A program made the position numbers and the translations under genes. Shown here piece after piece: positions 19,184 through 58,226 of a DNA stretch of 61,887 bases. The DNA comes from Cyanophyceae cyanobacterium (lineage in GTDB: Bacteria; Cyanobacteriota; Cyanobacteriia; Cyanobacteriales; JAAUUE01). The notes below the pieces were generated by a model. The model saw nothing but the letters and a program-made list of their open reading frames with translations. It was not told the DNA's origin and did no database searches. Every line of letters starts with the position of its first letter. Positions within the stretch are counted from its first letter, which is position 1. The DNA is taken from positions 1 through 61,887 of the forward strand of contig JBBQFK010000002.1 of NCBI GenBank assembly GCA_038321825.1. The letters run 5' to 3'.

Positions 19184-22100
19184 CTAGAGAATGAAGGGAC
19201 GGGGTTTGCCGATCGCATAGCCTTGGGCATAGTCAACGCCAATTTGTTGGAGTTTCTTAAAAATTAAGGGACTTTCGACAAACTCCGCAATGGTTTTCAT
19301 CCCCATTACCTTGCCCACTCGGTGAATTGCTTCGACAATCTCGTAGGCGATCGCATCTTCCCCAATCTCCCGCACAAACGCCCCATCAATTTTGAGATAG
19401 TCCACAGGTAAATTCTTCAGGTAGGTAAAAGAAGACATACCGCTGCCAAAATCATCGAGGGCAAAGGAGCAGCCCAGAGCCTTGAGAGAATGGATCAGGT
19501 TCATAGCGGTCTTCAGGTTCGTAATTGCTAGGGTTTCCGTGATTTCAAAGCAAATTAACTGAGGTGATACTTGATAAAGTTCCAATTGCTCGTAGAGAAA
19601 GTCGACAAATTGTTCATCATTGATACTGGCTCCAGAGAGATTAATGGCGTAAAGAGGGGAATGATTGTGGGGAGGATGCTGCCCGTGATTTCTGAGAGGA
19701 TTCCTCAGGGGATTTCTGAGAGAATTTTTGAGAGCTTCCTGCTCTTGGAGATGGCTAAATACTTTCTGAATTACCCATCGATCGATCTGGCTCATCAGGT
19801 CATACCGTTCCGCCGCCGAGATAAAGCTAGTTGGTGCAATTAACTGCCCGGAAGCATCCCGTAACCGGAGGAGAATTTCCCCATGATTATTACTATAAAT
19901 TTGGCTAGACTCACTAGGGGCATTTTTACTAAAATCATCAAAATTACTGAGATCACCAGAATCACCAAAACCATTAAGATTACTACTAGAATTACCAAAA
20001 TTACTAGCAGATTGGTTTACTGGAACAATAGTTTGGTAATACAGACAGAAGCGATTCTCGGCTAGGGCTTGGGGAATCTGCACTGCCCAACGCATTTCGC
20101 CCCGTTGTTTGATTAGCTCCTGATCATCCGCTTGGTAGACATGGACTCGATTTCGTCCTTGGTTTTTGGCAGCATAACAGGCAGCATCCACCGCACTCAA
20201 GGCACTAGTTAAATCTGGGGTTTCAGCATTGATGGCAACTAAGCCAATACTCACTCCGACTTGAAAGGTTTTATCTTCCCAAACAAAGCGGAACTGCTGG
20301 AGTTGTTTCTGGAGGGAGGCGGCTACCTGTTGGGCGGCGGCAAGGGAAGATTGGTGTAATAAAATTCCAAATTCATCTCCTCCTAAGCGAGCGAGGGTAT
20401 CAGTTGGGCGGAGGCGGTGATCTAGTAAATTACTGACTTGTCTGAGGAGTTCATCTCCAGCCAGATGTCCACAGGTATCATTAACAATCTTGAACTGATC
20501 TAGGTCTAGGTAGCACAGAGCCGATTCTAGACCAGAGGATTTGGTAAAAACAATTTCTTTTTCTAGACGGCTTTCAAATTCTCGACGATTTACTAACCCA
20601 GTGAGGTTGTCGTGGGTAGCTTGCCAAGATAGTTGCCCGGCGAGTTTCTGCTCTTCGGTCACGTCTCGAAAGACCAACACAGCACCGATGATCTCGTTGT
20701 TGCGATTCCGAATTGGGGCGGCGGAATGACTGATAATCCATTCTTTTTGGGTTCGATCGACCAAAATCGCATAATTTGCCAAACTAACAATACACCCCTC
20801 TTGGAAAGCTTTTTGGGCAGGGTTTTGAATCTCTTCCGGGCTAGGGTTCAGGGTACTGAGACTAGTAGTAGTGAGATGAAATACTTCCGAGAGTTGTAGC
20901 CCCCTTGCTTCTACCTCGCTCCAGCCTGTAATTTGCTCGGCAACAGGATTGCAAGATTGGACATAGCCTAGACGATCGACCGTAATCACCCCGTCGGCGA
21001 TCGATTGCAGAGTCACCTGTGCTAGTTCCTGACTCTGGCGTAATTGATACTGAGAAGATTCCAACGCCGCCAACATTAAAGCACTCCGTAATTCCAAGGC
21101 TGCCTCAATTTCCCCTGAGTCCCAAGGCAGGGATTGAAATTTTACTGTTTCTTTCCAGAGAGCAAAGGAATTCCGGGGGCTGAGACGCTGATGATTGAGG
21201 GGATCCACCTCTAGGGACTGGCGGGGATTTCCGGCCCAGTTCACCGTCTGAATCACCTCTGGGCGAAACCAAATTACTTGATAGCTCTTTTGGCTCCGGG
21301 CAATGGAAATAGCTAAAACCCCACTGGCCTCATCTTTATAATCTATAGCTTCTGGATAAAGCTTTGCTAAATGATTGGTATGGAAAATTTCCTCTTGATA
21401 ATTGGTTTCGAGCCACCCCATCAGAGCGTAGATAAACTCTTGGGGGGGAGTTTGTCCCAAAAACAAAAAATTATTTCCGAGGGAAACCACAGCCCCGGTA
21501 GCTTTCACAAGATCGAGGAGTACCTGTTGATCTTTAATTAGGCTATTGGCAAAGTTTTGCTCTTGGGGATTAGTTTGCAGAAGATTATCTAGCACTATCC
21601 GCAGTTTATCTTTGTAGCAAAAGCTCTTTTCCTGTTTTTCTTTGTAGATCAGTTCCACCGACATCACCTGCCCCAAAAATTCACAGGCTTTACGGATATT
21701 GTAGGGAATGTAGCGACGGCTGTAGTGATGGCAAGCAATCAATCCCCAGAGTTGCCGTGTTGCATCAAAGAAATACAAAGGGTAGCTCGGACTCCCATAT
21801 TTTGGAGGTATTCGATGTGAATGGGGGAAACCGCCCGGAGAATAGCCTGACTCAGGTCTAAAGGTTCTTGGGTCAGGGGGTTATTTTGGGGTATAATCTC
21901 CACAGGCGCATACTCCACATCGGCAATTAATCTTGTCCAGGTGGATTTGTAGAGTTCCCTAGCTTGAGCCGGAATATCGGTAGCTGGATAGTGCAGCCCT
22001 AGGAATGGTTCTAAATCTGCTTGTTTATCTTCGGCAATGACGGAGCCATTATTGAGGTGATCAAACTGGTAGACCATGACTCGATCGAACCCAGAAATCC

Positions 22101-22596
22101 GCCGCACTTCTTGGGCAAGAAAATCACACAATTCCTTAAATCCAGTGGCTCCTTGGAGCTTCAGCACCGAAGATCGCACCAAATGATAAAACTCTAAAAA
22201 AGATATCTGTTCCTGATGTACCACAGGCTCAATCTCTAATAACAATAATTCTTCGGAAGCGTGAATAATGCTATCAAAAATGAGAGTCTGTTGATTAATA
22301 TTAATAACTAGCCGCAAGGGATTTATGGTATCTAAATCCTCTAAAACTAGTGATTGCCTTAACTTTTGAATTTGTTGAGCATCTAAAAAGAAATCAAGGT
22401 TCTGATTTATTAATTCTGTTGGCGGAACAAATAAAAAATCTTGAGTATTGTGACTAACTTGAAGGATGGTAAAATCCTGTTTGCTGATTACCAATAGCAT
22501 CCCGTAGGGCTGAATTAGTCCCGGTTTACGGATACATTCTTGGTCGCAGGGGATGGGGCGAGTATTTGGAGAAAAGGCAATTTTTCTATTGATCAT
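19184..22596 (-). pseudogene. Bacteriophytochrome-type photoreceptor (PAS-GAF-PHY-PAS-GGDEF-EAL), interrupted by a 1-nt frameshift
   Basis: ORF 21739-22632 encodes PAS/GAF (C-DQEC-IRKPGLIQPYG, SPIHIEYLQNMGV). ORF 19184-21778 continues in another frame (LWGLIACHH, PHY, PAS, GGDEF, EAL-like EIL). The frames switch near 21763-21771. Confidence 0.85.
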
Positions 22597-23049
22597 GTCA
22601 TAATCACCTAGCACGCTTTCACGAGCAATCAAAGTAGAGAGATAGACGATTCTAAGTCATTGATCCAAGCATTAATTTACTTGGTATTATTACCCTAGCT
22701 TTTTATCTATATTTCACTTATAAATGTAACACAATATACTTGATATCTGTCATTAAAAATGATAAAATCAACATATAAGTTCATGTAATCTGTGTATTTC
22801 ACTATTAGTTAATTAATTTTTGTGTAGAGAGAAATATTTAGAAACTATATTAGCCATTAGTCAATCTCAGCTATGGGACTACCAGATCTGGCGAGGAAAG
22901 ACTAGGGACAAATTCATGGTGGAAACGGTATCTCAAGGACAGAGATGAAAAAAAACTTTAGCCCAGACCCCAACTCAGCCTAAACACCACCTCGATCGGG
23001 TAAAATGAGAATATTAGCTTAAGATAATTTTCAACACCTCAAGTAAACA

Positions 23050-36220: not shown

Positions 36221-38869
36221 ATGCTTGATCATAATTCTGGGTTAACCTTGGCAACGCCTTCTACTCCCTACTTTCCCGATCGCTCCCCCCTTGATCCGGT
36301 GGATCCTGTTGAGCTGGTTAATCATCTTGACCATCTTCCAGAGTTTTCTCCAGAATCAGCAACCCAATGGGTAGAAGTTCTTGTAGACTGCCCCGGACAG
36401 CAAGGCTTATACACTTACAAAGTTGCCGCAGATTTGGGAGTGCAACCGGGAGATATTTTGAGTGTTCCCTTTGGCAGTAGACAATTAGGAGCGATCGCCA
36501 TCCGCCTATTATCTTTTCCTACCTCTGAGTTAGCCCCAGAGAAGATCAAACCCGTAGAAGAGATTATTTGCCGAAATTATTTCCCGCCTCACTACTGGGA
36601 ACTCCTCGATCGAGTGGCTCACTATTACCAAACTTCTCTGTTGCAGGTGATGAATGTGGCCCTACCACCGGGGTTACTCAGCCAGAGCCAGCGCCGGATT
36701 CGCCTCAAGGGGAAAATTCCTGCCCAAGGGGATCTATTTCTCAGTGCCAGTGCTAAGGAAATCTTCAAACTCCTCCGGCAGCAAGAAACCAGTGGCTACA
36801 GTTGGCGGCATCTGCAAAAACAGGTGAAATTGGCAAGTCGGGGTTTGCGGGAACTAACCAAACTAGATTGGGTAGAAAGCTATTTAGAACCTCCCAAGCC
36901 GCCCCGTCCTCAGCTAAAAAAGGCAGTGACTCTGACTAGTGAAACAAATGTAGAACTTCCGAAGTTGACGACTAAGCAGCAGGAAGTATTAGATATTCTG
37001 CGCCGCTACGGGGGGGAGTTGTGGCTGCCGGAGCTATTACAAATTTCTACTGTCGGTAGTAGCGTAGTGGAGTTGTTGGCAAAGAAGGGCTTAGTGACGA
37101 TCGAACCCAGAGAGGTATTACGCAAGGGAAATACAGGGGTACGGCATCCAGACCTGCCCAAGGAATTGACCCCGGATCAGGCGATCGCCCTAGAGCAAAT
37201 TAATCAACTCTCTGGGTTTACCCAAGTTTTACTCCACGGGGTCACGGGTTCGGGAAAAACGGAAGTCTATCTGCAAGCGATCGCCCCCATCCTTGCTCAG
37301 GGAAAATCCGCCCTTGTCCTTGTCCCAGAAATTGGTCTGACTCCCCAACTCACCAGTAGATTTCAAGACCGTTTTGGGCAGCGAGTTTTTGTCTATCACA
37401 GTGCCTTGTCTGATGGGGAACGCTACGATACTTGGCGGCAGATGCTCACGGGGGAACCACAGGTAATTATCGGCACTCGATCGGCGGTGTTTGCGCCCCT
37501 GCCCCAGTTGGGGATGATTATTTTGGATGAAGAACACGATGCTAGTTTTAAGCAAAGTCAGCCCGCTCCCTGTTACCATGCCCGGACGGTGGCCCGATGG
37601 CGATCGCAACTAGCCAATTGCCCACTCCTCCTCGGCTCCGCTACCCCAGACCTCGAAACGTGGGTACAGGCTCAAAATTCTCGTGAATCTTGTGAATCTA
37701 GGGAATCTATGCAGTCTGGTGAATCTAGTAAATCTGGTGAATCTGGTGAATCTGACCAATTTATCTACCTTGCCCTGCCAGAGAGAATTAATGCCCGTCC
37801 CCTGCCCCAGATTGAAATTATTGATATGCGTTTGGAGTTTCAGGCAGGAAATAAATCTATATTTAGCTTGGCCTTGCAGGAGGCGATCGCCCAAATGCAG
37901 AAAAGTGGACAGCAGGGGATTTTATTTGTACCCCGCCGGGGTTACAGTACCTTTGTTTCCTGTCGCAGTTGCGGTTATGTCATGGAATGTCCCCACTGCG
38001 ATGTGTCTCTTTCCTACCACCATGTTAAAAATGCGAAGATTGAAACTAAACCAGTCCTCCAGTGTCACTACTGCAACCACCAACGCCCCCAACCAACCCA
38101 ATGCCCAGAGTGCGGCTCTCCTTACTTCAAATTTTTTGGCAGTGGCACCCAACGAGTTACCCAAGAACTGGAGGAGTTATGCCCCGGTTTGAGAATCATG
38201 CGTTTTGATAGCGATACTACCCGCACCAAAGATGCTCACCGGATTTTGCTCGATCGCTTTGCCCAAGGAGAAGCCGATCTGCTAGTGGGAACCCAAATGC
38301 TCACCAAAGGTATAGATTTAGCCCAAGTTACCCTGGTGGGTGTAGTTGCCGCCGATGGTTTACTCCACCGTGCCGATTATCGAGCCACAGAGCGGACTTT
38401 CCAGACCCTAACTCAGGTAGCAGGCAGAGCCGGACGGGGAGATTTACCGGGGCGAGTCCTGATTCAGACCTATTCCCCCGATCACACCGCAGTGATGGCA
38501 GTACAACGGCAGGATTATCCCAGTTTTGCAGCCACAGCCTTGAAAGAGCGAATTGATCTAGGCTATCCTCCCTACGGAAAATTGGTCCTACTTCGTTTTG
38601 CTGGTCAACCGGGAGAAGCAGTACAAGCAGCGGCGGAGGTGATCGCAGATTACCTAGAAGATTTACCCGATCGAACCTTCAATTTATTAGGTCCCGCTCC
38701 AGCCACAATCTTGCGGGTTGCCGATCGATTCCATTGGCAAATTCTCCTCAAGTTCCCTCCCCAAGCTACCCCAGTGTTACCATCCCTAGAGGAACTCCGC
38801 AGCTTAGTTAATGGTATAAGTTCTGGTGTTAGCTTAACGATCGATGTAGATGCCCTAAATTTGGGTTAG
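36221..38869 (+). CDS. priA: Primosomal protein N' (replication restart helicase)
   Basis: 882 aa with Walker A GVTGSGKT, DEEHD, a Cys-rich Zn region (CRSCG...CPHCD...CHYC...CPECG) and a C-terminal domain. It contains a 24-aa Ser/Glu repeat insert. Confidence 0.93.
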   Translation: MLDHNSGLTLATPSTPYFPDRSPLDPVDPVELVNHLDHLPEFSPESATQWVEVLVDCPGQQGLYTYKVAADLGVQPGDILSVPFGSRQLGAIAIRLLSFPTSELAPEKIKPVEEIICRNYFPPHYWELLDRVAHYYQTSLLQVMNVALPPGLLSQSQRRIRLKGKIPAQGDLFLSASAKEIFKLLRQQETSGYSWRHLQKQVKLASRGLRELTKLDWVESYLEPPKPPRPQLKKAVTLTSETNVELPKLTTKQQEVLDILRRYGGELWLPELLQISTVGSSVVELLAKKGLVTIEPREVLRKGNTGVRHPDLPKELTPDQAIALEQINQLSGFTQVLLHGVTGSGKTEVYLQAIAPILAQGKSALVLVPEIGLTPQLTSRFQDRFGQRVFVYHSALSDGERYDTWRQMLTGEPQVIIGTRSAVFAPLPQLGMIILDEEHDASFKQSQPAPCYHARTVARWRSQLANCPLLLGSATPDLETWVQAQNSRESCESRESMQSGESSKSGESGESDQFIYLALPERINARPLPQIEIIDMRLEFQAGNKSIFSLALQEAIAQMQKSGQQGILFVPRRGYSTFVSCRSCGYVMECPHCDVSLSYHHVKNAKIETKPVLQCHYCNHQRPQPTQCPECGSPYFKFFGSGTQRVTQELEELCPGLRIMRFDSDTTRTKDAHRILLDRFAQGEADLLVGTQMLTKGIDLAQVTLVGVVAADGLLHRADYRATERTFQTLTQVAGRAGRGDLPGRVLIQTYSPDHTAVMAVQRQDYPSFAATALKERIDLGYPPYGKLVLLRFAGQPGEAVQAAAEVIADYLEDLPDRTFNLLGPAPATILRVADRFHWQILLKFPPQATPVLPSLEELRSLVNGISSGVSLTIDVDALNLG

Positions 38870-39591: not shown

Positions 39592-40068
39592 ATGAAATAC
39601 CTGCTAGGCTTTGATCCCGGACGAGATAAGTGTGGGGTGGCGGTGGTAGAAAAGGTGGTAGAAAAGGTGACAGATACCCCAGCGATCGATCTCCTAGGGC
39701 AGGGAGTTGAAGATCGGGGAAATAGTAAAAGTTGCGTCGATCGAGTGTGTCTCCACCAAATTTTGCCATCGACGGCAGCGATCTCAGGTTTACAAGATTT
39801 GTGTCGGCAGTTTGACTTTGAAATTTTGGTGATGGGGGATGGGACTACCGCTAAGGAGTGGCAGGAAAAGTTTCGCCAGAGTTTGGCTATTCCAGTAGTT
39901 TTAGTAAATGAACGCAATAGTACCCTAGAGGCGCGCGATCGATACTGGCAGATGTTTCCGCCCCAAGGCTTCCAAAAAATTATCCCCCAAAGTTTACGGC
40001 GCATCGATCGCCCGATCGACGATATTGTGGCAATCCTGCTCGTGGAGCGCTTTCTAGCAACTCAGTAA
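39592..40068 (+). CDS. ruvX: YqgF/RuvX-like putative Holliday junction resolvase / pre-16S rRNA nuclease
   Basis: 158 aa with LLGFDPGRDKCGVAVV, ERNSTLEAR and IDDIVAILLVERFL resembling YqgF blocks. Confidence 0.65.
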   Translation: MKYLLGFDPGRDKCGVAVVEKVVEKVTDTPAIDLLGQGVEDRGNSKSCVDRVCLHQILPSTAAISGLQDLCRQFDFEILVMGDGTTAKEWQEKFRQSLAIPVVLVNERNSTLEARDRYWQMFPPQGFQKIIPQSLRRIDRPIDDIVAILLVERFLATQ

Positions 40069-40171
40069 TTACTCGGTAGTCAGTGCCAAGCCAGTAATAA
40101 CCCGTTTACGTTATGGTGAAAAGGCAGATAAAATTTGATAAAGAATTCAACACCACAAAAAGAATTATATT

Positions 40172-41350
40172 TTGTCCGACACAAACACAACTCAGCCTCG
40201 CCTCTTATCCTTCACCCTCGATGATTGGGATGTCCTCGGTGGTCAAGTTTCTGTGTCTTTGCAAAATGGAGTTGTAGTATTAGTTGGTCGAAATGGGGCT
40301 GGTAAATCAGCTATCCTTGAAGGCTTTAAAGCTATTTCATCCATTGCCACTGGTGAGATAATTGAAAGAAGTAGACCCAAAATATTAAAGATCGAAATCT
40401 CAACTCCACTTGATCGTCGGCTTGAATATACATATAAGTTTATTCCTGTAGATATATCTACTAATGAAACTAAAGTTAAGTCTTCGCCGACGTGGGATGA
40501 TCACTGCGAATATCTGGATGGAGAAAAAGAACTTTTGTGGACTACTAAGCATGGAGTAACAGAATTTGAGAAGATAGGAAGCCCAATTATTACTATTCTT
40601 GGGAATACTAGCTCTCTCCAAACAACACTTCCAGAAAATTCACCAATACAGCTTCCTATTGAAATGCAATGGATTCGTGCTGTCTTAAATGGAGTTCATC
40701 TTCTTGGGAAACTTCCCGTCCGTACAACATCAGAACGTCGAGTAGTAATCCTGACTATATCCAATAAATTTAGTTGTTCTGATTCTGATTTCGATTTAAT
40801 AAATCATGTGCCTTCTAAGATACTCCATCTTATGAAGACAGGTGAACTTCATGAACTTGAAAGTGTTTGTCAGCGAGTTGGGATTGGTAATAAAATAGCT
40901 ACGAAAAAACTTTCTCTAACTCCAAATGAGATATTTAGAGGATTTACGGAAGAAACAGACTATTTTTTAGTAATGTTAGATGGGGTAAATATTGGGTTGC
41001 TCTCTGATGGGACACTTCGGATTTTATCAATTCTTGTAGAGTTAATTAACCTAAATCCTAGTACAACAATAATAATTGAAGAACCGGAAACCCAAATTCA
41101 TCCGGGTATGCTGGCAAGATTACTTAATGAAATTGAAGCATATACCTTTGGGAGAAATTTAATTCTCTCGACTCATTCACCACAGGTAGTAGCTTGGACT
41201 AGCCCAGAGAATATTAATCTAGTTCACCGCAAAGATGGGCAGACATTTGTTCGGAAACTAGATGAAGATGAAATACACAATGTTATCGAATATATTTCCG
41301 ATGAAGGTGATTTAGGCGAATGGATTTATAGTGGTATTCTTGATGACTAA
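40172..41350 (+). CDS. ABC-type (AAA_15/AAA_21-like) ATPase, first gene of a two-gene cassette
   Basis: 392 aa with a TTG start. It has Walker A GRNGAGKS (39-46), signature-like LSDGT (277-281), Walker B TTIIIEE (298-304) and H-loop STH (333-335). The gene is AT-rich and free of CGATCG. Confidence 0.85.
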   Translation: MSDTNTTQPRLLSFTLDDWDVLGGQVSVSLQNGVVVLVGRNGAGKSAILEGFKAISSIATGEIIERSRPKILKIEISTPLDRRLEYTYKFIPVDISTNETKVKSSPTWDDHCEYLDGEKELLWTTKHGVTEFEKIGSPIITILGNTSSLQTTLPENSPIQLPIEMQWIRAVLNGVHLLGKLPVRTTSERRVVILTISNKFSCSDSDFDLINHVPSKILHLMKTGELHELESVCQRVGIGNKIATKKLSLTPNEIFRGFTEETDYFLVMLDGVNIGLLSDGTLRILSILVELINLNPSTTIIIEEPETQIHPGMLARLLNEIEAYTFGRNLILSTHSPQVVAWTSPENINLVHRKDGQTFVRKLDEDEIHNVIEYISDEGDLGEWIYSGILDD

Positions 41351-41939
41351 TTTTAGAATTGCCTTGATTGCTGAAGATGATACAGACTGCGATGCTATGC
41401 GGATAATTATCCATCGTGTACTAGGTAAAGATATAAGCACAAAAAAGTGGGCATCCAAGGGTTGTGGCAAATTAAGAAGAAAGTTACCAGCAAAAATCAA
41501 AGAACTTTCTAGGGAAGGTTGCAATGCTTTTGTTATTCTGCACGATTTGGATCGTAACCCTCAAAATGGATCTCTTAATAATGAACTAGAACTCAGAAAA
41601 AAATTAGAGGAATCAATCTCAAGTTTCCAAGGTATTCATAAGCATATTTGTATCCCTATTGAGGAGTTAGAGGCTTGGTTCTGGTCTGACCCAGAGGTGG
41701 TAAAGCATATTGGGCGAGGTAAAGGACAAGCAAAAGCAAATCCTCACACTATTCCCAAACCAAAAGAAGCATTACTAAAACTTTCAATTGGCGAAAATAG
41801 GCAGCCCCGTTACAGTACCAACATGAATGCTGAATTGGCTGATATGTTGAATCTAAAGATTTGTGCCGATCGCTGCCCTGCTTTTAAGGGCTTAATCGAA
41901 TTTCTTAAACCTGATTCAGTTAAAAAAACTAAAAAATAA
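41343..41939 (+). CDS. TOPRIM-like small protein (DUF4276-like), second gene of the cassette
   Basis: 198 aa from the ATG at 41343, overlapping the ATPase stop in ATGACTAA. It has an N-terminal IALIAEDDTD acidic cluster and HDLD (67-70), consistent with TOPRIM Glu and DxD. The ORF-track start at 41331 (GTG) is an alternative. Confidence 0.75.
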   Translation: MTNFRIALIAEDDTDCDAMRIIIHRVLGKDISTKKWASKGCGKLRRKLPAKIKELSREGCNAFVILHDLDRNPQNGSLNNELELRKKLEESISSFQGIHKHICIPIEELEAWFWSDPEVVKHIGRGKGQAKANPHTIPKPKEALLKLSIGENRQPRYSTNMNAELADMLNLKICADRCPAFKGLIEFLKPDSVKKTKK

Positions 41940-42062
41940 TCTCGGAATAGTTGCGGCATCCTATGGCACTTTTAGAAATTCTCGCCGTCCTAGGAAGGTA
42001 AATCTCATAAGTTTTGAGAATTTTCTGATACACTTTAAACCAAAATTAACTTTTACTGAAAA

Positions 42063-42599
42063 ATGTTTCTATCTATAAAAAAGCCCCTCCACATTTTATT
42101 GTCTGCGACTTTGGTAGCTGGTAGCTTGCTCACGGGTGGTTTGACCGCATTTGCTCAAAATACTCCCGGATTTACCATTTTTAGTGGGGTGCGGGGTGAA
42201 AATGAACTGAGATATTTCCTCGATTTTGGTGGTCGTCCTTTTCAGTTTGAGCGCTATCGCCTGCGGATTCCCTCTAGCAAAATGGAAACTGGCGTATCCG
42301 AGTTTATTGTTGCCTACCCAGATTACTTTGATGGCATTATCGATCCGGGGGCGATCGAGCTATCAGTCCGGGGAAGAAATGTTCCTGTCGATGCAGTATT
42401 AGACACAGAAGCCCGACGGATTCAAATTGTCCCTAGGGAAGTAGTTGTTTCTGGTAGCCCTGTGGAAATTGTCCTCAGTAATGTCAAAAATCCCCAGTAT
42501 GGCGGTACTTACTATTTTGAAGCCTTTGCCAATGCTCCCGGAGATATTCCCCTATCTCGCTATCTAGGGACTTGGATTATCACGATCGGCGGCAATTAG
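42063..42599 (+). CDS. DUF2808 domain protein (secreted)
   Basis: 178 aa with a signal peptide. LRYFLDFGGRP.QFERYRLRIP...FIVAYPDYFDG is typical of the cyanobacterial DUF2808 family. Confidence 0.75.
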   Translation: MFLSIKKPLHILLSATLVAGSLLTGGLTAFAQNTPGFTIFSGVRGENELRYFLDFGGRPFQFERYRLRIPSSKMETGVSEFIVAYPDYFDGIIDPGAIELSVRGRNVPVDAVLDTEARRIQIVPREVVVSGSPVEIVLSNVKNPQYGGTYYFEAFANAPGDIPLSRYLGTWIITIGGN

Positions 42600-57580: not shown

Positions 57581-57820
57581 ATGATGATCCAAGAACTTGA
57601 AGCCGTATTTGATGGGACAGCCCTTCAACTTGAAAAACCCTTAAATCTAGCCGTAGGAACGAGGGTGCGGATTGTCGTTGAAAGTGTCTTGCCCAAGGAA
57701 GTCAACCCACCTAAAACATTTCTGAAAACTGCTCAGTCTTTAAAATTACGGGGTGAGCCAGATTGGTCGGAAAAAATTGACCAATATTTGGATGCGGCAA
57801 CTTTGTCTAACAATGACTAA
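57581..57820 (+). CDS. DUF104/AF2212-like antitoxin partnered with VapC
   Basis: 79 aa. The N-terminus LEAVFDGTALQLEKPLNLAVGTRVRIVVE resembles DUF104 antitoxins. It overlaps the PIN gene start by 8 nt (ATGACTAA). Confidence 0.7.
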   Translation: MMIQELEAVFDGTALQLEKPLNLAVGTRVRIVVESVLPKEVNPPKTFLKTAQSLKLRGEPDWSEKIDQYLDAATLSNND

Positions 57821-58226
57821 AGTTTTTTTAGATACTTCTTTTGCGATCGCCTTATCTTCTGTCACCGATCAAAATCATGAACGAGCTGTTAAACTTGCCA
57901 ACCAAATTGAGACTGAGAGAACCCGTTTGGTCACAACGCAGGCGATCCTGCTGGAAATAGGTAATTCGCTTTCTAAGCAAAAATACAGAGCGGCGGCAAT
58001 CCAACTTTTGGAGTCTCTCGAAACTGATCCTAGTGTCGAAGTCGTTTTATTAACCAATAGCCTCTACAAATTAGCCTTCAATTTGTTTAAGCAACGAGAA
58101 GACAAAGAATGGGGTTTAGTGGACTGTATATCATTCATCGTGATGCAGGATCGAGGAATTACTGATGCACTGACAACCGATACCCATTTTCAGCAGGCAG
58201 GATTTCGAGCACTATTAAGGGTTTAA
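57813..58226 (+). CDS. vapC: PIN-domain toxin (VapC family)
   Basis: 137 aa from MTKVFLDTSF. The acidic PIN residues lie in FLDTS, LLEIG, LVDCIS and TTDTHF. The ORF-track start at 57753 is unlikely. Confidence 0.85.
   Translation: MTKVFLDTSFAIALSSVTDQNHERAVKLANQIETERTRLVTTQAILLEIGNSLSKQKYRAAAIQLLESLETDPSVEVVLLTNSLYKLAFNLFKQREDKEWGLVDCISFIVMQDRGITDALTTDTHFQQAGFRALLRV

What the first reader, a model, noticed from the sequence alone, without database searches (positions are those of the whole stretch)
40172..41939. Compositionally foreign two-gene cassette: small ABC-type ATPase translationally coupled to a TOPRIM-like (DUF4276-like) protein, a candidate split OLD/PARIS-like defence module
Seen in sequence:
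- Two co-oriented ORFs overlap by 8 nt (ATGACTAA at 41343-41350).
- ORF A (392 aa) has Walker A GRNGAGKS (res 39-46), an ABC-signature-like LSDGT (277-281), Walker B TTIIIEE (298-304) and H-loop STH (333-335). A non-conserved insert of about 230 aa separates Walker A from the signature.
- ORF B (198 aa) has an N-terminal strand plus acidic cluster IALIAEDDTD and an HDLD motif (67-70). This is the Glu ... DxD arrangement of a TOPRIM fold.
- Hand counts give G+C of 19/60 at 40381-40440 and 22/60 at 41521-41580. The flanks give 33/60 at 39601-39660 and 29/60 at 42301-42360.
- The CGATCG motif is absent from 40172 to 41866. It occurs at least 5 times in the 477-bp ruvX-like gene just upstream.

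Established knowledge: ABC ATPase plus TOPRIM nuclease is the architecture of OLD-family nucleases, Gabija GajA, PARIS AriA/AriB and AbiL.

Inference: this is a horizontally acquired anti-phage or anti-plasmid module inserted between native genes. As far as I can recall the DUF4276-type partner has no experimentally defined role, but I cannot verify that here.
Basis: partly seen in the sequence, partly recalled or inferred. Interest (0 to 1): 0.8.

Follow-up and report, generated by a model that had tools for sequence, protein, structure and literature searches.

The report
Cyanobacterial HEC-01 ATPase–DUF4276 defence cassette
A low-GC two-gene cassette (an ABC-type ATPase plus a DUF4276 Toprim-like protein) inserted between housekeeping genes of a filamentous cyanobacterium belongs to the already catalogued candidate anti-phage system HEC-01; what stands out is that two very different versions of it occupy the same site in otherwise identical chromosomes.

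Summary

The predicted Pfam hits came out as forecast. ORF A matches AAA_21/AAA_15 and ORF B matches DUF4276. Both proteins also match PADLOC's HEC-01A/HEC-01B models, so the pair is an already named candidate defence system (Payne et al. 2024). It is not a new architecture. It is not a member of PARIS, OLD, Gabija, Septu or MADS.

Published tests of HEC-01 are mixed: one negative and one positive. Mad4, a DUF4276 homologue, is genetically required in MADS.

New here:
- The cassette belongs to a large, almost purely cyanobacterial clade. It is paired in 50 of 51 loci, and 39 of those keep the same 8-nt overlap.
- It moves as a 1.75-kb unit without a recombinase.
- Its G+C is below that of its flanks in 49 of 50 genomes.
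- At this site it occurs as two deeply diverged alleles (63% and 74% amino-acid identity) in chromosomes whose flanks are 98–100% identical.
- ORF A's insert evolves fastest.

My own fold and profile tests of the Toprim assignment were inconclusive.

Verdict: new member of a known kind, moderate-to-low interest.

The parts
40071..40171 (+). Cassette-specific 5' leader. It begins right after the ruvX-like stop codon (40066-40068) and contains a weak sigma-70-like site, TTTACG-18-TAAAAT, at 40105-40134.
   Evidence: Homology to the syntenic genome L001 with the alternative cargo ends at about 40070. The leader is shared almost unchanged by both cassette alleles. The last ~35 nt, including CTATATTTTGTCCGACACAAAC with the TTG start, are conserved in copies at unrelated sites. 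The number of promoter-like sites is not above the shuffle expectation.
40172..41350 (+). ORF A, 392 aa: HEC-01A-type ABC ATPase. Motifs are Walker A G39-x-N-G-x-G-K45-S46, signature L277-S-D-G-T281, Walker B and D-loop I302-E-E-P-E306, and H-loop H335.
   Evidence: Pfam AAA_21 4.5e-22 and AAA_15 1.2e-10. PADLOC HEC-01A 4.7e-23. The motifs are invariant in 68 homologues. The AF2 model has pLDDT 78.8, and its best solved folds are PtuA (Septu and retron effectors, E 1.6e-11 to about 1e-9) followed by SMC and Rad50 heads.
40352..40981 (+). Variable insert of ORF A (residues 61-270), mixed beta and helical; the candidate sensing or oligomerisation region.
   Evidence: Column entropy is 1.29 against about 0.6 in the ATPase lobes, and indels cluster here. 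dN/dS is 0.32-0.90 against 0.10-0.20 in the lobes. DNA identity between the two alleles is lowest here, at 50-63%.
40751..40828 (+). Hypervariable patch in ORF A (residues 194-219).
   Evidence: Against the nearest copies L069 and L071, the insert carries 9 and 7 non-synonymous changes and no synonymous ones. Seven (L069) and five (L071) of these fall in residues 194-219. The patch overlaps the low-confidence loop 199-205 and helix 209-222 of the model.
41343..41350 (+). 8-nt start/stop overlap, ATGACTAA (inferred translational coupling).
   Evidence: Read directly from the sequence. The same ATGA(G/C)TA(A/G) 8-nt overlap is present in 39 of 50 paired loci, and most of the rest overlap by 4-17 nt.
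41343..41939 (+). ORF B, 198 aa: DUF4276 / HEC-01B protein, the predicted Toprim-like metal-dependent nuclease effector. E11 follows beta1, D68-x-D70 follows beta3, and E107/E108/E110 follow beta4.
   Evidence: Pfam DUF4276 8.1e-10, above the gathering score. Multiple PADLOC HEC-01B models hit, best 6.1e-11. The AF2 model has pLDDT 89.2 and pTM 0.85 with four beta-alpha units. E11, D68, D70, E110 and W112 are invariant in 116 representatives down to about 25% identity.
41940..42062 (+). Highly conserved spacer upstream of the DUF2808 gene. It belongs to the native flank and is the right-hand homology anchor for cassette exchange.
   Evidence: Nearly invariant between the window, L001 (other cargo) and L004. 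It is 100% identical in the allele-2 contigs. There is no Rfam family above threshold, and the fold is no more stable than shuffles (z 0.54).

Best explanation
This is a chromosomal copy of the candidate anti-phage system HEC-01.

The cassette is a two-gene operon. An SMC/Rad50/PtuA-like ABC ATPase (ORF A) is made together with a small DUF4276 protein (ORF B). ORF B carries the Glu...DxD acidic constellation of Toprim metal-dependent nucleases.

Most likely mechanism (inferred by analogy with PARIS, Gabija, OLD and Septu):
1. The ATPase holds or gates the nuclease in an inactive complex.
2. Its variable insert senses an infection cue.
3. ATP binding or hydrolysis then releases or activates ORF B.
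4. ORF B cleaves nucleic acid (DNA or tRNA/RNA) and stops phage replication, possibly at the cost of the cell.

The cassette was acquired horizontally and has since been inherited in this lineage. It is a polymorphic immune locus: different alleles, and in one relative a different cargo, replace one another at the same site by homologous recombination in the conserved flanks.

Shown here: domain identities, motif conservation, obligatory pairing and overlap, accessory and mobile distribution, defence-island context in other genera, allelic dimorphism, and purifying selection with a fast-evolving insert.

Inferred, not shown: complex formation, nuclease activity, the substrate, the trigger and the abortive-infection outcome.
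For: **Family assignment**
- Pfam AAA_21/AAA_15 and DUF4276. PADLOC HEC-01A 4.7e-23 and HEC-01B 6.1e-11.
- ABC motifs are invariant in 68 homologues.
- ORF A's fold is closest to the defence ATPase PtuA, then to SMC and Rad50 heads.
- In the ORF B model, E11 follows beta1 and D68xD70 follows beta3. These residues are invariant across 116 diverse representatives.

**Literature**
- HEC-01B shares a metal-binding site with BpOLD Toprim (10.1101/2024.01.29.577857).
- DUF4276 is assigned to the Toprim superfamily (PMC12065111).
- One HEC-01 representative protected E. coli B against at least one of T4, T5 and T7 (10.1101/2024.09.26.614923).
- Deleting mad3 or mad4 reduces MADS defence. The mad5 gene could only be deleted if mad2 or mad3 was deleted as well.

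**Operon unit**
- ORF A lies immediately upstream in 50 of 51 loci, and 39 have the same 8-nt overlap.
- A and B identities are correlated (r = 0.84).

**Accessory and mobile**
- L001 has a different cargo at this site.
- The same unit, corresponding to window 40163-41905 at 82-84% DNA identity, sits at unrelated sites in L018 and L019.
- Cassette G+C is below flank G+C in 49 of 50 loci.

**Defence context**
- In Planktothrix the pair lies among type I, MmeI-type and type III RM, ParE, HigB, GmrSD and SocA genes.
- In Anabaena it lies among TA genes and a CHAT-domain gene.

**Arms-race signature**
- In L070 and L072 the flanks are 98-100% identical to the window, but ORF A is 62.9% and ORF B 74.2% identical. 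Cassette dS is 0.37-0.49 against 0-0.05 for the full-length flanking genes of L070 (ruvX-like, response regulator, DUF2808).
- Insert dN/dS is 0.32-0.90 against 0.10-0.20 in the lobes. Against the nearest copies the insert has only non-synonymous changes, clustered in residues 194-219.
- All copies examined are intact.
Against: - There is no functional data for this clade. The HEC-01 representative tested by Payne et al. gave no protection against their phage panel.
- In this genome the cassette is alone between housekeeping genes, not in a defence island.
- Foldseek of a confident ORF B model found no significant PDB or BFVD match and no Toprim chain in the top 50. The best global TM was an RloB-like protein at 0.48.
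- hhalign of the family profile against the P2 Old Toprim gave a probability of 1.9%.
- ORF B found no match in the plasmid or phage collections.
- The cassette is stably inherited in this lineage. That would also fit a domesticated or selfish element.
Confidence: 0.7

Rival explanations
1. The module depends on a partner and is not autonomous. As with Mad3/Mad4 in MADS, or the HEC-01 copies embedded in Hma and RM systems, the ATPase-DUF4276 pair would normally act as an effector or back-up arm of a larger methylation or helicase system. The solo copy here would then be inactive, or would serve some other MGE-restriction role (for example against plasmids or transforming DNA).
For: HEC-01 was discovered as genes embedded in Hma systems, and the representative tested on its own was inactive. 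Mad3 and Mad4 are accessory components of MADS that are not always present. Planktothrix copies sit next to type I or MmeI-type RM genes.
Against: Here and in Microcystis, L018 and L019 the pair is alone among housekeeping genes, yet it is intact and under purifying selection. The unit that moves is exactly the two genes. One cold-seep HEC-01 was active when cloned as a candidate system.
Confidence: 0.13
2. It is a selfish addiction or toxin-antitoxin-like module. ORF B would be a toxic nuclease restrained by ORF A, kept because losing it is costly, with no net benefit against phage.
For: The Pfam AAA_21 family is described as 'putative AbiEii toxin, type IV TA system'. The pair is tightly coupled and neighbours TA genes in other genomes. 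In L001 the same site holds a small two-gene cargo with a sub-threshold PIN hit.
Against: An addiction module does not predict two deeply diverged alleles with a fast-evolving ATPase insert. ORF B has no plasmid or phage matches, although those are where addiction modules thrive. Relatives contribute to defence genetically.
Confidence: 0.1
3. It is a housekeeping DNA-repair or chromosome-maintenance pair, a RecF/RecN/SbcCD-like ATPase with a nuclease, placed next to priA and a ruvX-like gene.
For: There are weak SMC_N, RecF and Rad50 profile hits to the Walker A region. The neighbours include priA and a RuvX-like protein.
Against: L001, which is syntenic, lacks the pair and has other genes there. 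In other cyanobacteria the pair sits at unrelated sites. GC3 is 0.25-0.30 against 0.41-0.50 in the neighbours. Allelic divergence is extreme in a conserved background.
Confidence: 0.04
4. ORF A is the ATP-binding subunit of an ABC or ECF transporter, as some source annotations say ('EcfA2', 'SufC', 'CcmA').
For: JGI gives such names to homologues. There are weak hits of the Walker A region to transporter NBD models.
Against: No membrane partner gene is present. All transporter hits are far below their cut-offs and cover only about 40 residues. A 210-residue insert interrupts the NBD. The closest folds are PtuA, SMC and Rad50. The obligatory partner is DUF4276.
Confidence: 0.01

Closest known systems
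HEC-01 (Hma-embedded candidate 01; PADLOC-DB; Payne et al., bioRxiv 10.1101/2024.01.29.577857)
   Same: It has the same two-gene architecture: an ABC ATPase (annotated AAA_21) followed by a small Toprim-like DUF4276 protein. Both window proteins hit several HEC-01A and HEC-01B HMMs as their best PADLOC matches.
   Different: Here the pair is not embedded in an Hma or other defence operon. It is a solo insertion between housekeeping genes. It belongs to a large cyanobacterial clade with a fixed 8-nt gene overlap and shows within-species allelic dimorphism. I did not see either feature reported in the papers I read.
Mad3/Mad4 of the methylation-associated defence system MADS (P. aeruginosa SMC4386)
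   Same: An ATPase plus DUF4276 pair, with weak but specific profile hits (PADLOC mad3 6.5e-15 and mad4 4.5e-4; NCBIfam MADS3 and MADS4). Deleting mad3 or mad4 reduces defence.
   Different: Scores are far below the equivalog cut-offs: 52.6 against 420 and 24.1 against 160. None of the other mad genes (methyltransferase, Mad6-8) is nearby.
PARIS (AriA ABC ATPase + AriB DUF4435 Toprim nuclease)
   Same: A split ABC-ATPase and Toprim-type effector encoded by two adjacent genes. The PARIS mechanism (the ATPase scaffold senses a phage trigger and releases a tRNA-cleaving Toprim nuclease) is the best template for how this pair may work.
   Different: ORF B is DUF4276, not DUF4435, and hits no AriB model. 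ORF A is smaller than the ~55 kDa AriA, at 392 aa. Its only 'AriA' hit is to a 304-position model that matches at the same coordinates as Pfam AAA_21, so it looks generic.
OLD-family nucleases and Gabija GajA (fused ABC ATPase-Toprim)
   Same: The combination of an AAA_15/AAA_21 ABC ATPase with an acidic Glu...DxD catalytic domain. ORF A hits GajA HMMs at about 1e-13.
   Different: There the domains are fused in one polypeptide, and the Toprim is the PF20469 type, as P2 Old shows. ORF B gives no PF20469 hit, no significant hhalign match to the Old Toprim and no Foldseek match.
Septu / retron-associated PtuA-PtuB
   Same: PtuA is the closest solved fold to ORF A (E 1.6e-11 to about 1e-9). It is a two-gene ATPase-plus-nuclease defence module.
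   Different: The name of PDB entry 9n69 among those hits describes the retron partner as an HNH nuclease. From general knowledge, PtuB is an HNH nuclease, not a Toprim/DUF4276 protein. The NCBIfam PtuA score is 35.7 against a cut-off of 500.
Menshen NsnC variants and RloB-type proteins
   Same: DUF4276 and RloB are described together as Toprim-superfamily effector domains (PMC12065111). Five of 116 family members weakly hit RloB, and the best global TM in BFVD is an RloB-like protein.
   Different: No NsnA- or NsnB-like genes are present. Here DUF4276 is a free-standing protein, not a C-terminal domain.

Membership tests
HEC-01 (PADLOC candidate system) | ATPase component matches HEC-01A profile HMMs | tested here: met
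   Best PADLOC hits are HEC-01A models, E 4.7e-23, 1.3e-22 and 1.5e-22.
HEC-01 (PADLOC candidate system) | Partner matches HEC-01B profile HMMs / is a DUF4276 protein | tested here: met
   Thirteen of the 16 PADLOC families hit by ORF B are HEC-01B models (best 6.1e-11), and a fourteenth is a model labelled HEC-01A. DUF4276 scores 39.7 bits against a gathering score of 30.2.
HEC-01 (PADLOC candidate system) | The two genes are adjacent and co-oriented | tested here: met
   They overlap by 8 nt on the + strand. The same arrangement occurs in 50 of 51 related loci.
HEC-01 (PADLOC candidate system) | Embedded in an Hma or other multi-gene defence system (the basis of its discovery) | tested here: not met
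   The neighbours are priA, a response regulator, a ruvX-like gene, DUF2808 and an AtzH-like gene. Relatives in Planktothrix do lie among RM and TA genes. This is a context of discovery rather than a requirement of the model.
HEC-01 (PADLOC candidate system) | Confers resistance to phage | not testable with these tools
   Literature only: one representative was negative and one positive.
ABC ATPase (SMC/Rad50/OLD-like clade) | Walker A, ABC signature, Walker B / D-loop and H-loop in order | tested here: met
   GRNGAGKS 39-46, LSDGT 277-281, IIEEPE 301-306 and H335. All core residues are invariant in 68 homologues.
ABC ATPase (SMC/Rad50/OLD-like clade) | Fold similar to solved ABC ATPase heads | tested here: met
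   Foldseek gives 225 PDB hits at E<=1e-3. The top hits are PtuA, SMC4/SMC heads and Rad50.
Toprim superfamily (ORF B) | Conserved Glu after beta1 and DxD after beta3 of a beta-alpha repeat core | tested here: met
   In the model, beta1 is 5-10 followed by E11, and beta3 is 62-67 followed by D68-L-D70. These residues are invariant in 116 diverse representatives.
Toprim superfamily (ORF B) | Three-dimensional similarity to solved Toprim domains (OLD, GajA, AriB, RNase M5) | tested here: inconclusive
   Foldseek found no PDB hit at E<=1e-3 and no Toprim chain in the top 50. In BFVD the best TM was an RloB-like protein (0.48), and a DnaG Toprim appeared at E 0.37. Two papers report the similarity.
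Toprim superfamily (ORF B) | Profile-level sequence similarity to Toprim families | tested here: inconclusive
   hhalign against the P2 Old Toprim gave probability 1.9%, although it aligned IAED on Old's LVEG. Of 116 members, 5 weakly hit RloB, 2 Toprim and 1 DUF3854. The test is under-powered: Old's own Toprim region does not retrieve the solved OLD or GajA chains.
PARIS | Effector AriB is a DUF4435-type Toprim protein | tested here: not met
   No DUF4435 or AriB hit for ORF B at E<=1, nor for family members at E<=10.
OLD family / Gabija GajA | ATPase and PF20469 OLD-like Toprim fused in one polypeptide | tested here: not met
   There are two separate ORFs. ORF B has no PF20469 hit, whereas P2 Old scores 1.2e-17.
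MADS | Mad3/Mad4 equivalog scores and presence of the mandatory Mad6-8 genes | tested here: not met
   MADS3 scores 52.6 bits against a cut-off of 420, and MADS4 24.1 against 160. No other mad-like genes flank the pair. Mad6-8 are mandatory in the published model.
Septu | PtuA equivalog plus HNH partner PtuB | tested here: not met
   NCBIfam PtuA scores 35.7 bits against a cut-off of 500. The partner is DUF4276, and no HNH family was hit.

The most novel reading that the evidence does not exclude
In this Microcoleus-like species the HEC-01 cassette would be a balanced, polymorphic immune locus.

Two alleles differ by 37% in the ATPase and 26% in the DUF4276 protein, yet they sit in chromosomes that are otherwise 98-100% identical. 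Within one allele there is also a patch (ORF A residues 194-219) that changes only non-synonymously.

This would mean that the ATPase insert directly recognises a phage-encoded trigger and is in an ongoing arms race. It would also mean that the DUF4276 protein is a released Toprim-type nuclease, perhaps a tRNase as in PARIS. That would make this clade a natural entry point to the still unknown mechanism of HEC-01/DUF4276 systems.
Probability: 0.25. Interest if true: 0.55.

Novelty: new member of a known kind. Interest (0 to 1): 0.35.

Why it matters
HEC-01 and DUF4276 modules are common in environmental genomes. One paper lists HEC-01 among the twelve most abundant candidate system types in cold-seep prokaryotes. 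Their mechanism is unknown and their experimental record is mixed.

This window adds no new architecture. It does show three useful things:
- There is a large, coherent cyanobacterial lineage of the system.
- The two genes are a self-contained mobile unit.
- The ATPase insert is the fast-evolving part, and two deep alleles coexist at one chromosomal site.

This gives concrete handles for finding what the system senses: allele swaps, the 194-219 patch, and the K45 and E11/D68/D70 mutants. It also gives a natural population in which to link alleles to cyanophage pressure. Practically, many homologues carry misleading transporter-type names ('EcfA2', 'SufC') that should be corrected.

Tried and rejected
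1. Foldseek of the ORF B model against PDB and BFVD found no significant match and no Toprim chain. I do not take this as disproof, because the hits are generic three-layer alpha/beta folds and I could not superpose coordinates.
2. Profile searches (A3, A5) against PDB sequences returned only chance hits.
3. I spent the last homologue search on the P2 Old Toprim region to build an OLD-Toprim profile. It returned only 5 fragments and was unusable.
4. hhalign of the family profile against the single Old Toprim sequence gave probability 1.9%. The Old Toprim region on its own also fails to retrieve the solved OLD or GajA chains, so the test is under-powered.
5. I looked for a mobility mechanism. 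There are no convincing terminal direct or inverted repeats. The only tRNA is 12 kb away. No integrase or transposase lies next to the window, L018 or L019 copies. I conclude that exchange happens by homologous recombination in the flanks.
6. I searched plasmid and phage collections for ORF B as possible vehicles and found none.
7. I tested the CGATCG-free gap as independent evidence of foreignness. It is not significant on its own (P = 0.43).
8. I considered an RNA element in the conserved spacer. There is no Rfam hit above threshold and no excess structure.
9. I first read the L001 cargo as a PIN toxin-antitoxin pair. Only a sub-threshold PIN hit supports this (E 0.016, 16.2 bits against 23.6), so I report it as 'possibly PIN-like'.
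10. I checked whether the window's other low-GC patches form a defence island with the cassette. They hold ordinary genes apart from one PIN-domain ORF.
Full report
**1. The observation**

The two co-oriented ORFs are as described. ORF A is 40172..41350 (TTG start, 392 aa). ORF B is 41343..41939 (ATG start, 198 aa). They overlap in ATGACTAA at 41343-41350. An in-frame TAA at 40139-40141 closes the frame upstream, so the TTG at 40172 is the first canonical start. That TTG lies in a stretch (CTATATTTTGTCCGACACAAAC) that is invariant in four copies.

The cassette is the lowest-GC stretch of its size in the window: 0.375 against a mean of 0.453 (sd 0.035). GC3 is 0.25 and 0.30, against 0.41-0.50 in the neighbours.

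The CGATCG-free interval (40013 to 41867) is the longest in the window. A gap that long arises by chance in 43% of random placements, so it is only weak supporting evidence. The one CGATCG inside the cassette encodes the conserved C174-A-D-R-C178 motif and is kept in copies from other genomes.

**2. What the proteins are**

ORF A matches Pfam AAA_21 (4.5e-22) and AAA_15 (1.2e-10). ORF B matches DUF4276 above its gathering score.

Against PADLOC models, the best hits of ORF A are HEC-01A (4.7e-23). Those of ORF B are a series of HEC-01B models (best 6.1e-11). Hits to mad3 and mad4 are weaker. NCBIfam gives only far-sub-threshold MADS3, MADS4 and PtuA hits.

In 68 homologues of ORF A, the Walker A, signature, Walker B/D-loop and H-loop residues are invariant. 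The AlphaFold model (pLDDT 78.8) is closest to PtuA of Septu and the retron effector complexes (E 1.6e-11 to about 1e-9), and then to SMC and Rad50 heads. ORF A is therefore a bona fide ABC ATPase of the defence-associated kind, not a transporter subunit as some database names suggest.

The ORF B model is confident (pLDDT 89.2, pTM 0.85). It consists of four beta-alpha units followed by a helical C-terminal part. E11 comes directly after beta1, D68-x-D70 directly after beta3, and E107/E108/E110 after beta4. In an alignment of 116 representatives down to about 25% identity, E11, D68, D70, E110 and W112 are invariant.

**3. The Toprim question**

Two papers assign DUF4276/HEC-01B to the Toprim superfamily on structural grounds (10.1101/2024.01.29.577857; PMC12065111). 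My own tests neither confirm nor refute this.
- Foldseek gave no significant hit in PDB or BFVD and no Toprim chain among the top 50. The best global TM-score was an RloB-like phage protein (0.48).
- Profile searches against PDB sequences found nothing.
- hhalign against the P2 Old Toprim was not significant, although it aligned the family's IAED on Old's catalytic LVEG.
- A few family members weakly hit RloB, Toprim and DUF3854, and hit DUF3226 more strongly.
- The sequence tests are under-powered. Old's own Toprim region does not retrieve the solved OLD or GajA chains.

I therefore treat 'Toprim-like metal-dependent nuclease' as well motivated by motif geometry and by the literature, but not independently verified here.

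**4. Is it accessory, and how did it get here?**

A syntenic Microcoleus MAG (L001) has the order priA, response regulator, ruvX-like, [cargo], DUF2808, AtzH-like. Its flanks are 83-90% identical in DNA to the window. It lacks the cassette. At exactly the same junctions it carries a different 936-bp cargo of two minus-strand ORFs, with only a sub-threshold PIN hit. Homology breaks right after the ruvX stop codon and resumes at ORF B's stop codon.

A JGI genome (L006) that is about 13% diverged in DNA has the cassette at the same site, and it aligns collinearly with the window through the cassette. There the cassette G+C is 0.366, against 0.47-0.49 in the flanks. The insertion is therefore old and inherited in this lineage, and it has not ameliorated.

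In Phormidium lacuna (L018) and a Coleofasciculaceae MAG (L019), DNA homology to the window is confined to 40163-41905 (82-84%). There it lies between unrelated housekeeping genes with no recombinase nearby. The mobile unit is therefore just the two genes plus about 10-35 nt of leader. I found no terminal repeats, no nearby tRNA, and no plasmid or phage matches to ORF B.

**5. The family at large**

ORF B has hundreds of close relatives and ORF A likewise. Nearly all named ones are cyanobacterial: Anabaena, Dolichospermum, Planktothrix, Microcystis, Scytonema, Pseudanabaena, Symploca and others.

In a scan of one genome per species, 51 loci were found. Of these, 46 are cyanobacterial. The others are from Myxococcota, Pseudomonadota and Saccharibacteria, at 33-49% identity. 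The survey showed:
- An ORF A homologue lies immediately upstream on the same strand in 50 of 51 loci. In the remaining one the contig is cut.
- 39 loci have the identical 8-nt ATGA(G/C)TA(A/G) overlap.
- Cassette G+C is below flank G+C in 49 of 50 (mean -0.060).
- ORF B is more conserved than ORF A in 47 of 50.
- A and B identities are correlated (r = 0.84).

Contexts vary. In Planktothrix the pair sits in a dense island with type I, MmeI-type and type III RM, ParE/Phd, HigB, Uma2, GmrSD and SocA genes. In Anabaena it sits among HicA and PIN genes, a CHAT-domain gene, a group II intron RT and a transposase. In Microcystis it is a solo insertion between ureD and gyrA. In the present window it is also solo. 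The other low-GC patches of the window hold ordinary genes apart from one PIN ORF.

**6. An unexpected result: two alleles at one site**

I used the nearly invariant right-hand spacer as a probe, and this recovered four metagenome contigs.

Two of them (L069, L071) carry the window's allele at about 97% DNA identity.

The other two (L070, L072) have flanks 98-100% identical to the window. In them the ruvX-like and DUF2808 proteins are 100% identical, and dS is 0-0.05 for the full-length flanking genes of L070. Their cassette is nevertheless only 50-90% identical in DNA. ORF A is 62.9% and ORF B 74.2% identical in protein, with dS 0.37-0.49. That is more diverged than the copy in the far more distant genome L006 (78% and 84%). 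Allele 2's ORF A is 65-68% identical to every sampled copy.

The 5' leader is shared by both alleles, and divergence starts with the ORF A coding sequence.

All copies are intact, with dN/dS of 0.2-0.5 overall. Within ORF A the ATPase lobes have dN/dS 0.10-0.20 and the insert (residues 61-270) 0.32-0.90. Against the nearest copies the insert shows 9:0 and 7:0 non-synonymous to synonymous changes. Seven (L069) and five (L071) of these fall in residues 194-219. The insert also has twice the column entropy of the lobes and holds the indels.

These are the features expected of an immune locus under diversifying or balancing selection, with cassette exchange by recombination in conserved flanks. 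They do not prove it.

**7. How it most likely works**

By analogy with the characterised ABC-ATPase and nuclease defence systems (PARIS, Gabija, OLD, Septu), I propose the following. ORF A oligomerises and binds ORF B. ORF A's variable insert senses an infection cue. The ATPase cycle then licenses ORF B's acidic metal site to cut nucleic acid. The outcome is abortive infection or growth arrest.

The last 16 residues of ORF A are highly conserved but modelled as disordered. I suggest they are a docking motif. This is inference.

Genetic support from relatives:
- Deleting mad3 or mad4 weakens MADS. The mad5 gene could only be deleted if mad2 or mad3 was also deleted, which I read as tying the ATPase to the toxic arm.
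- One HEC-01 representative protected E. coli B. Another gave no protection.

**8. Comparison with what is known, and verdict**

The pair meets the operational definition of HEC-01: both HMM families hit, and the genes are adjacent and co-oriented. It fails the defining features of PARIS (DUF4435 AriB), OLD/Gabija (fused PF20469 Toprim), MADS (equivalog scores, Mad6-8) and Septu (HNH partner).

It is a new, cyanobacterial member of a known candidate kind. The within-species allelic dimorphism and the fast-evolving insert are the parts worth following up.

Noticed in passing
L001:4940-5691 (site equivalent to window 40071-41932): In the syntenic Microcoleus MAG the same intergenic site holds a different cargo. 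It has two minus-strand ORFs (150 aa and 100 aa) that overlap by 4 nt. The only hit is a sub-threshold PIN match (E 0.016), and there is no PDB relative. The ruvX/DUF2808 junction therefore behaves as a cargo-exchange hotspot.
   Followed up: partly
window 40058-40104: There is an imperfect 18-nt direct repeat of the ruvX 3' end, CAACTCAGTAATTACTCG and CAAGCCAGTAATAACCCG, spaced 29 nt apart. Both copies are present in the window and in the allele-2 contig L070. L006 has only one copy. It may be a footprint of recombination at the left junction.
   Followed up: partly
window 41940-42062: The spacer upstream of the DUF2808 gene is more conserved than the surrounding coding DNA. It is nearly invariant even against L001 and L004. 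It has no Rfam match above threshold and no excess predicted structure. It is probably the DUF2808 promoter and leader.
   Followed up: partly
window 41343-41939 (ORF B residues C16, C41, C60, C103, C174, C178): Six cysteines are conserved in the cyanobacterial clade. C178 is at least 90% conserved across the whole DUF4276 family, and the family consensus also has GCG and GC at the positions of C41 and C60. This may be a structural or metal (Zn or Fe-S) site. Their spatial proximity could not be checked without coordinates.
   Followed up: no
window 41300-41347 (ORF A residues 377-392, EGDLGEWIYSGILDD): The C-terminal tail of the ATPase is among the most conserved segments (majority frequency 0.89), yet it is modelled with pLDDT of about 30. 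It is a candidate short docking motif for ORF B or for a neighbouring protomer.
   Followed up: no
window 39592-40068 (ruvX-like gene): The RuvX/YqgF-like protein is 158 aa here and in L006 but 137 aa in L001. The difference is a 21-residue insertion after the VEKV motif (a repeated VEKV plus a Gly/Asp-rich stretch). CGATCG occurs five times in this 477-bp gene.
   Followed up: no
window ~37650-37900 (inside priA, 36221-38869): The PriA-like helicase carries a low-complexity Ser/Glu/Gly-rich insertion (…RESCESRESMQSGESSKSGESGESDQ…). It is longer than in L001, and repetitive alternative-frame ORFs are listed at 37610-37894 (- strand) and 37683-38192 (+ strand). This looks like an expanding tandem repeat in an essential gene.
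   Followed up: no
window 57753-58226: A PIN-domain ORF (157 aa, Pfam PIN 7.2e-14) lies in another low-GC patch next to two Ser/Thr kinase genes. It may be a toxin-antitoxin remnant. No partner was examined.
   Followed up: no
window 19184-22632 (- strand): Two overlapping minus-strand ORFs lie at 19184-21778 (864 aa) and 21739-22632 (297 aa). The 297-aa ORF has phytochrome-type PAS_2 and GAF domains. They may be one phytochrome-like gene split by a frameshift or a start-codon artefact. The 864-aa ORF was not scanned.
   Followed up: no
L012-L014 (Planktothrix agardhii / rubescens): The HEC-01 pair lies in a variable defence island. Its left part alternates between a type I RM (N6_Mtase plus Methylase_S) and an MmeI-type enzyme. 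Its right part alternates between GmrSD/SocA genes and a type III RM plus helicase. This is a good natural example of island turnover around a fixed HEC-01 copy.
   Followed up: no
homologues P0126, P0138, P0143, P0173, P0224 and others: Many ORF A homologues carry transporter-type names in source annotations ('energy-coupling factor transporter ATP-binding protein EcfA2', 'Fe-S cluster assembly ATPase SufC', 'cytochrome c biogenesis ATPase'). These are almost certainly mis-annotations.
   Followed up: partly
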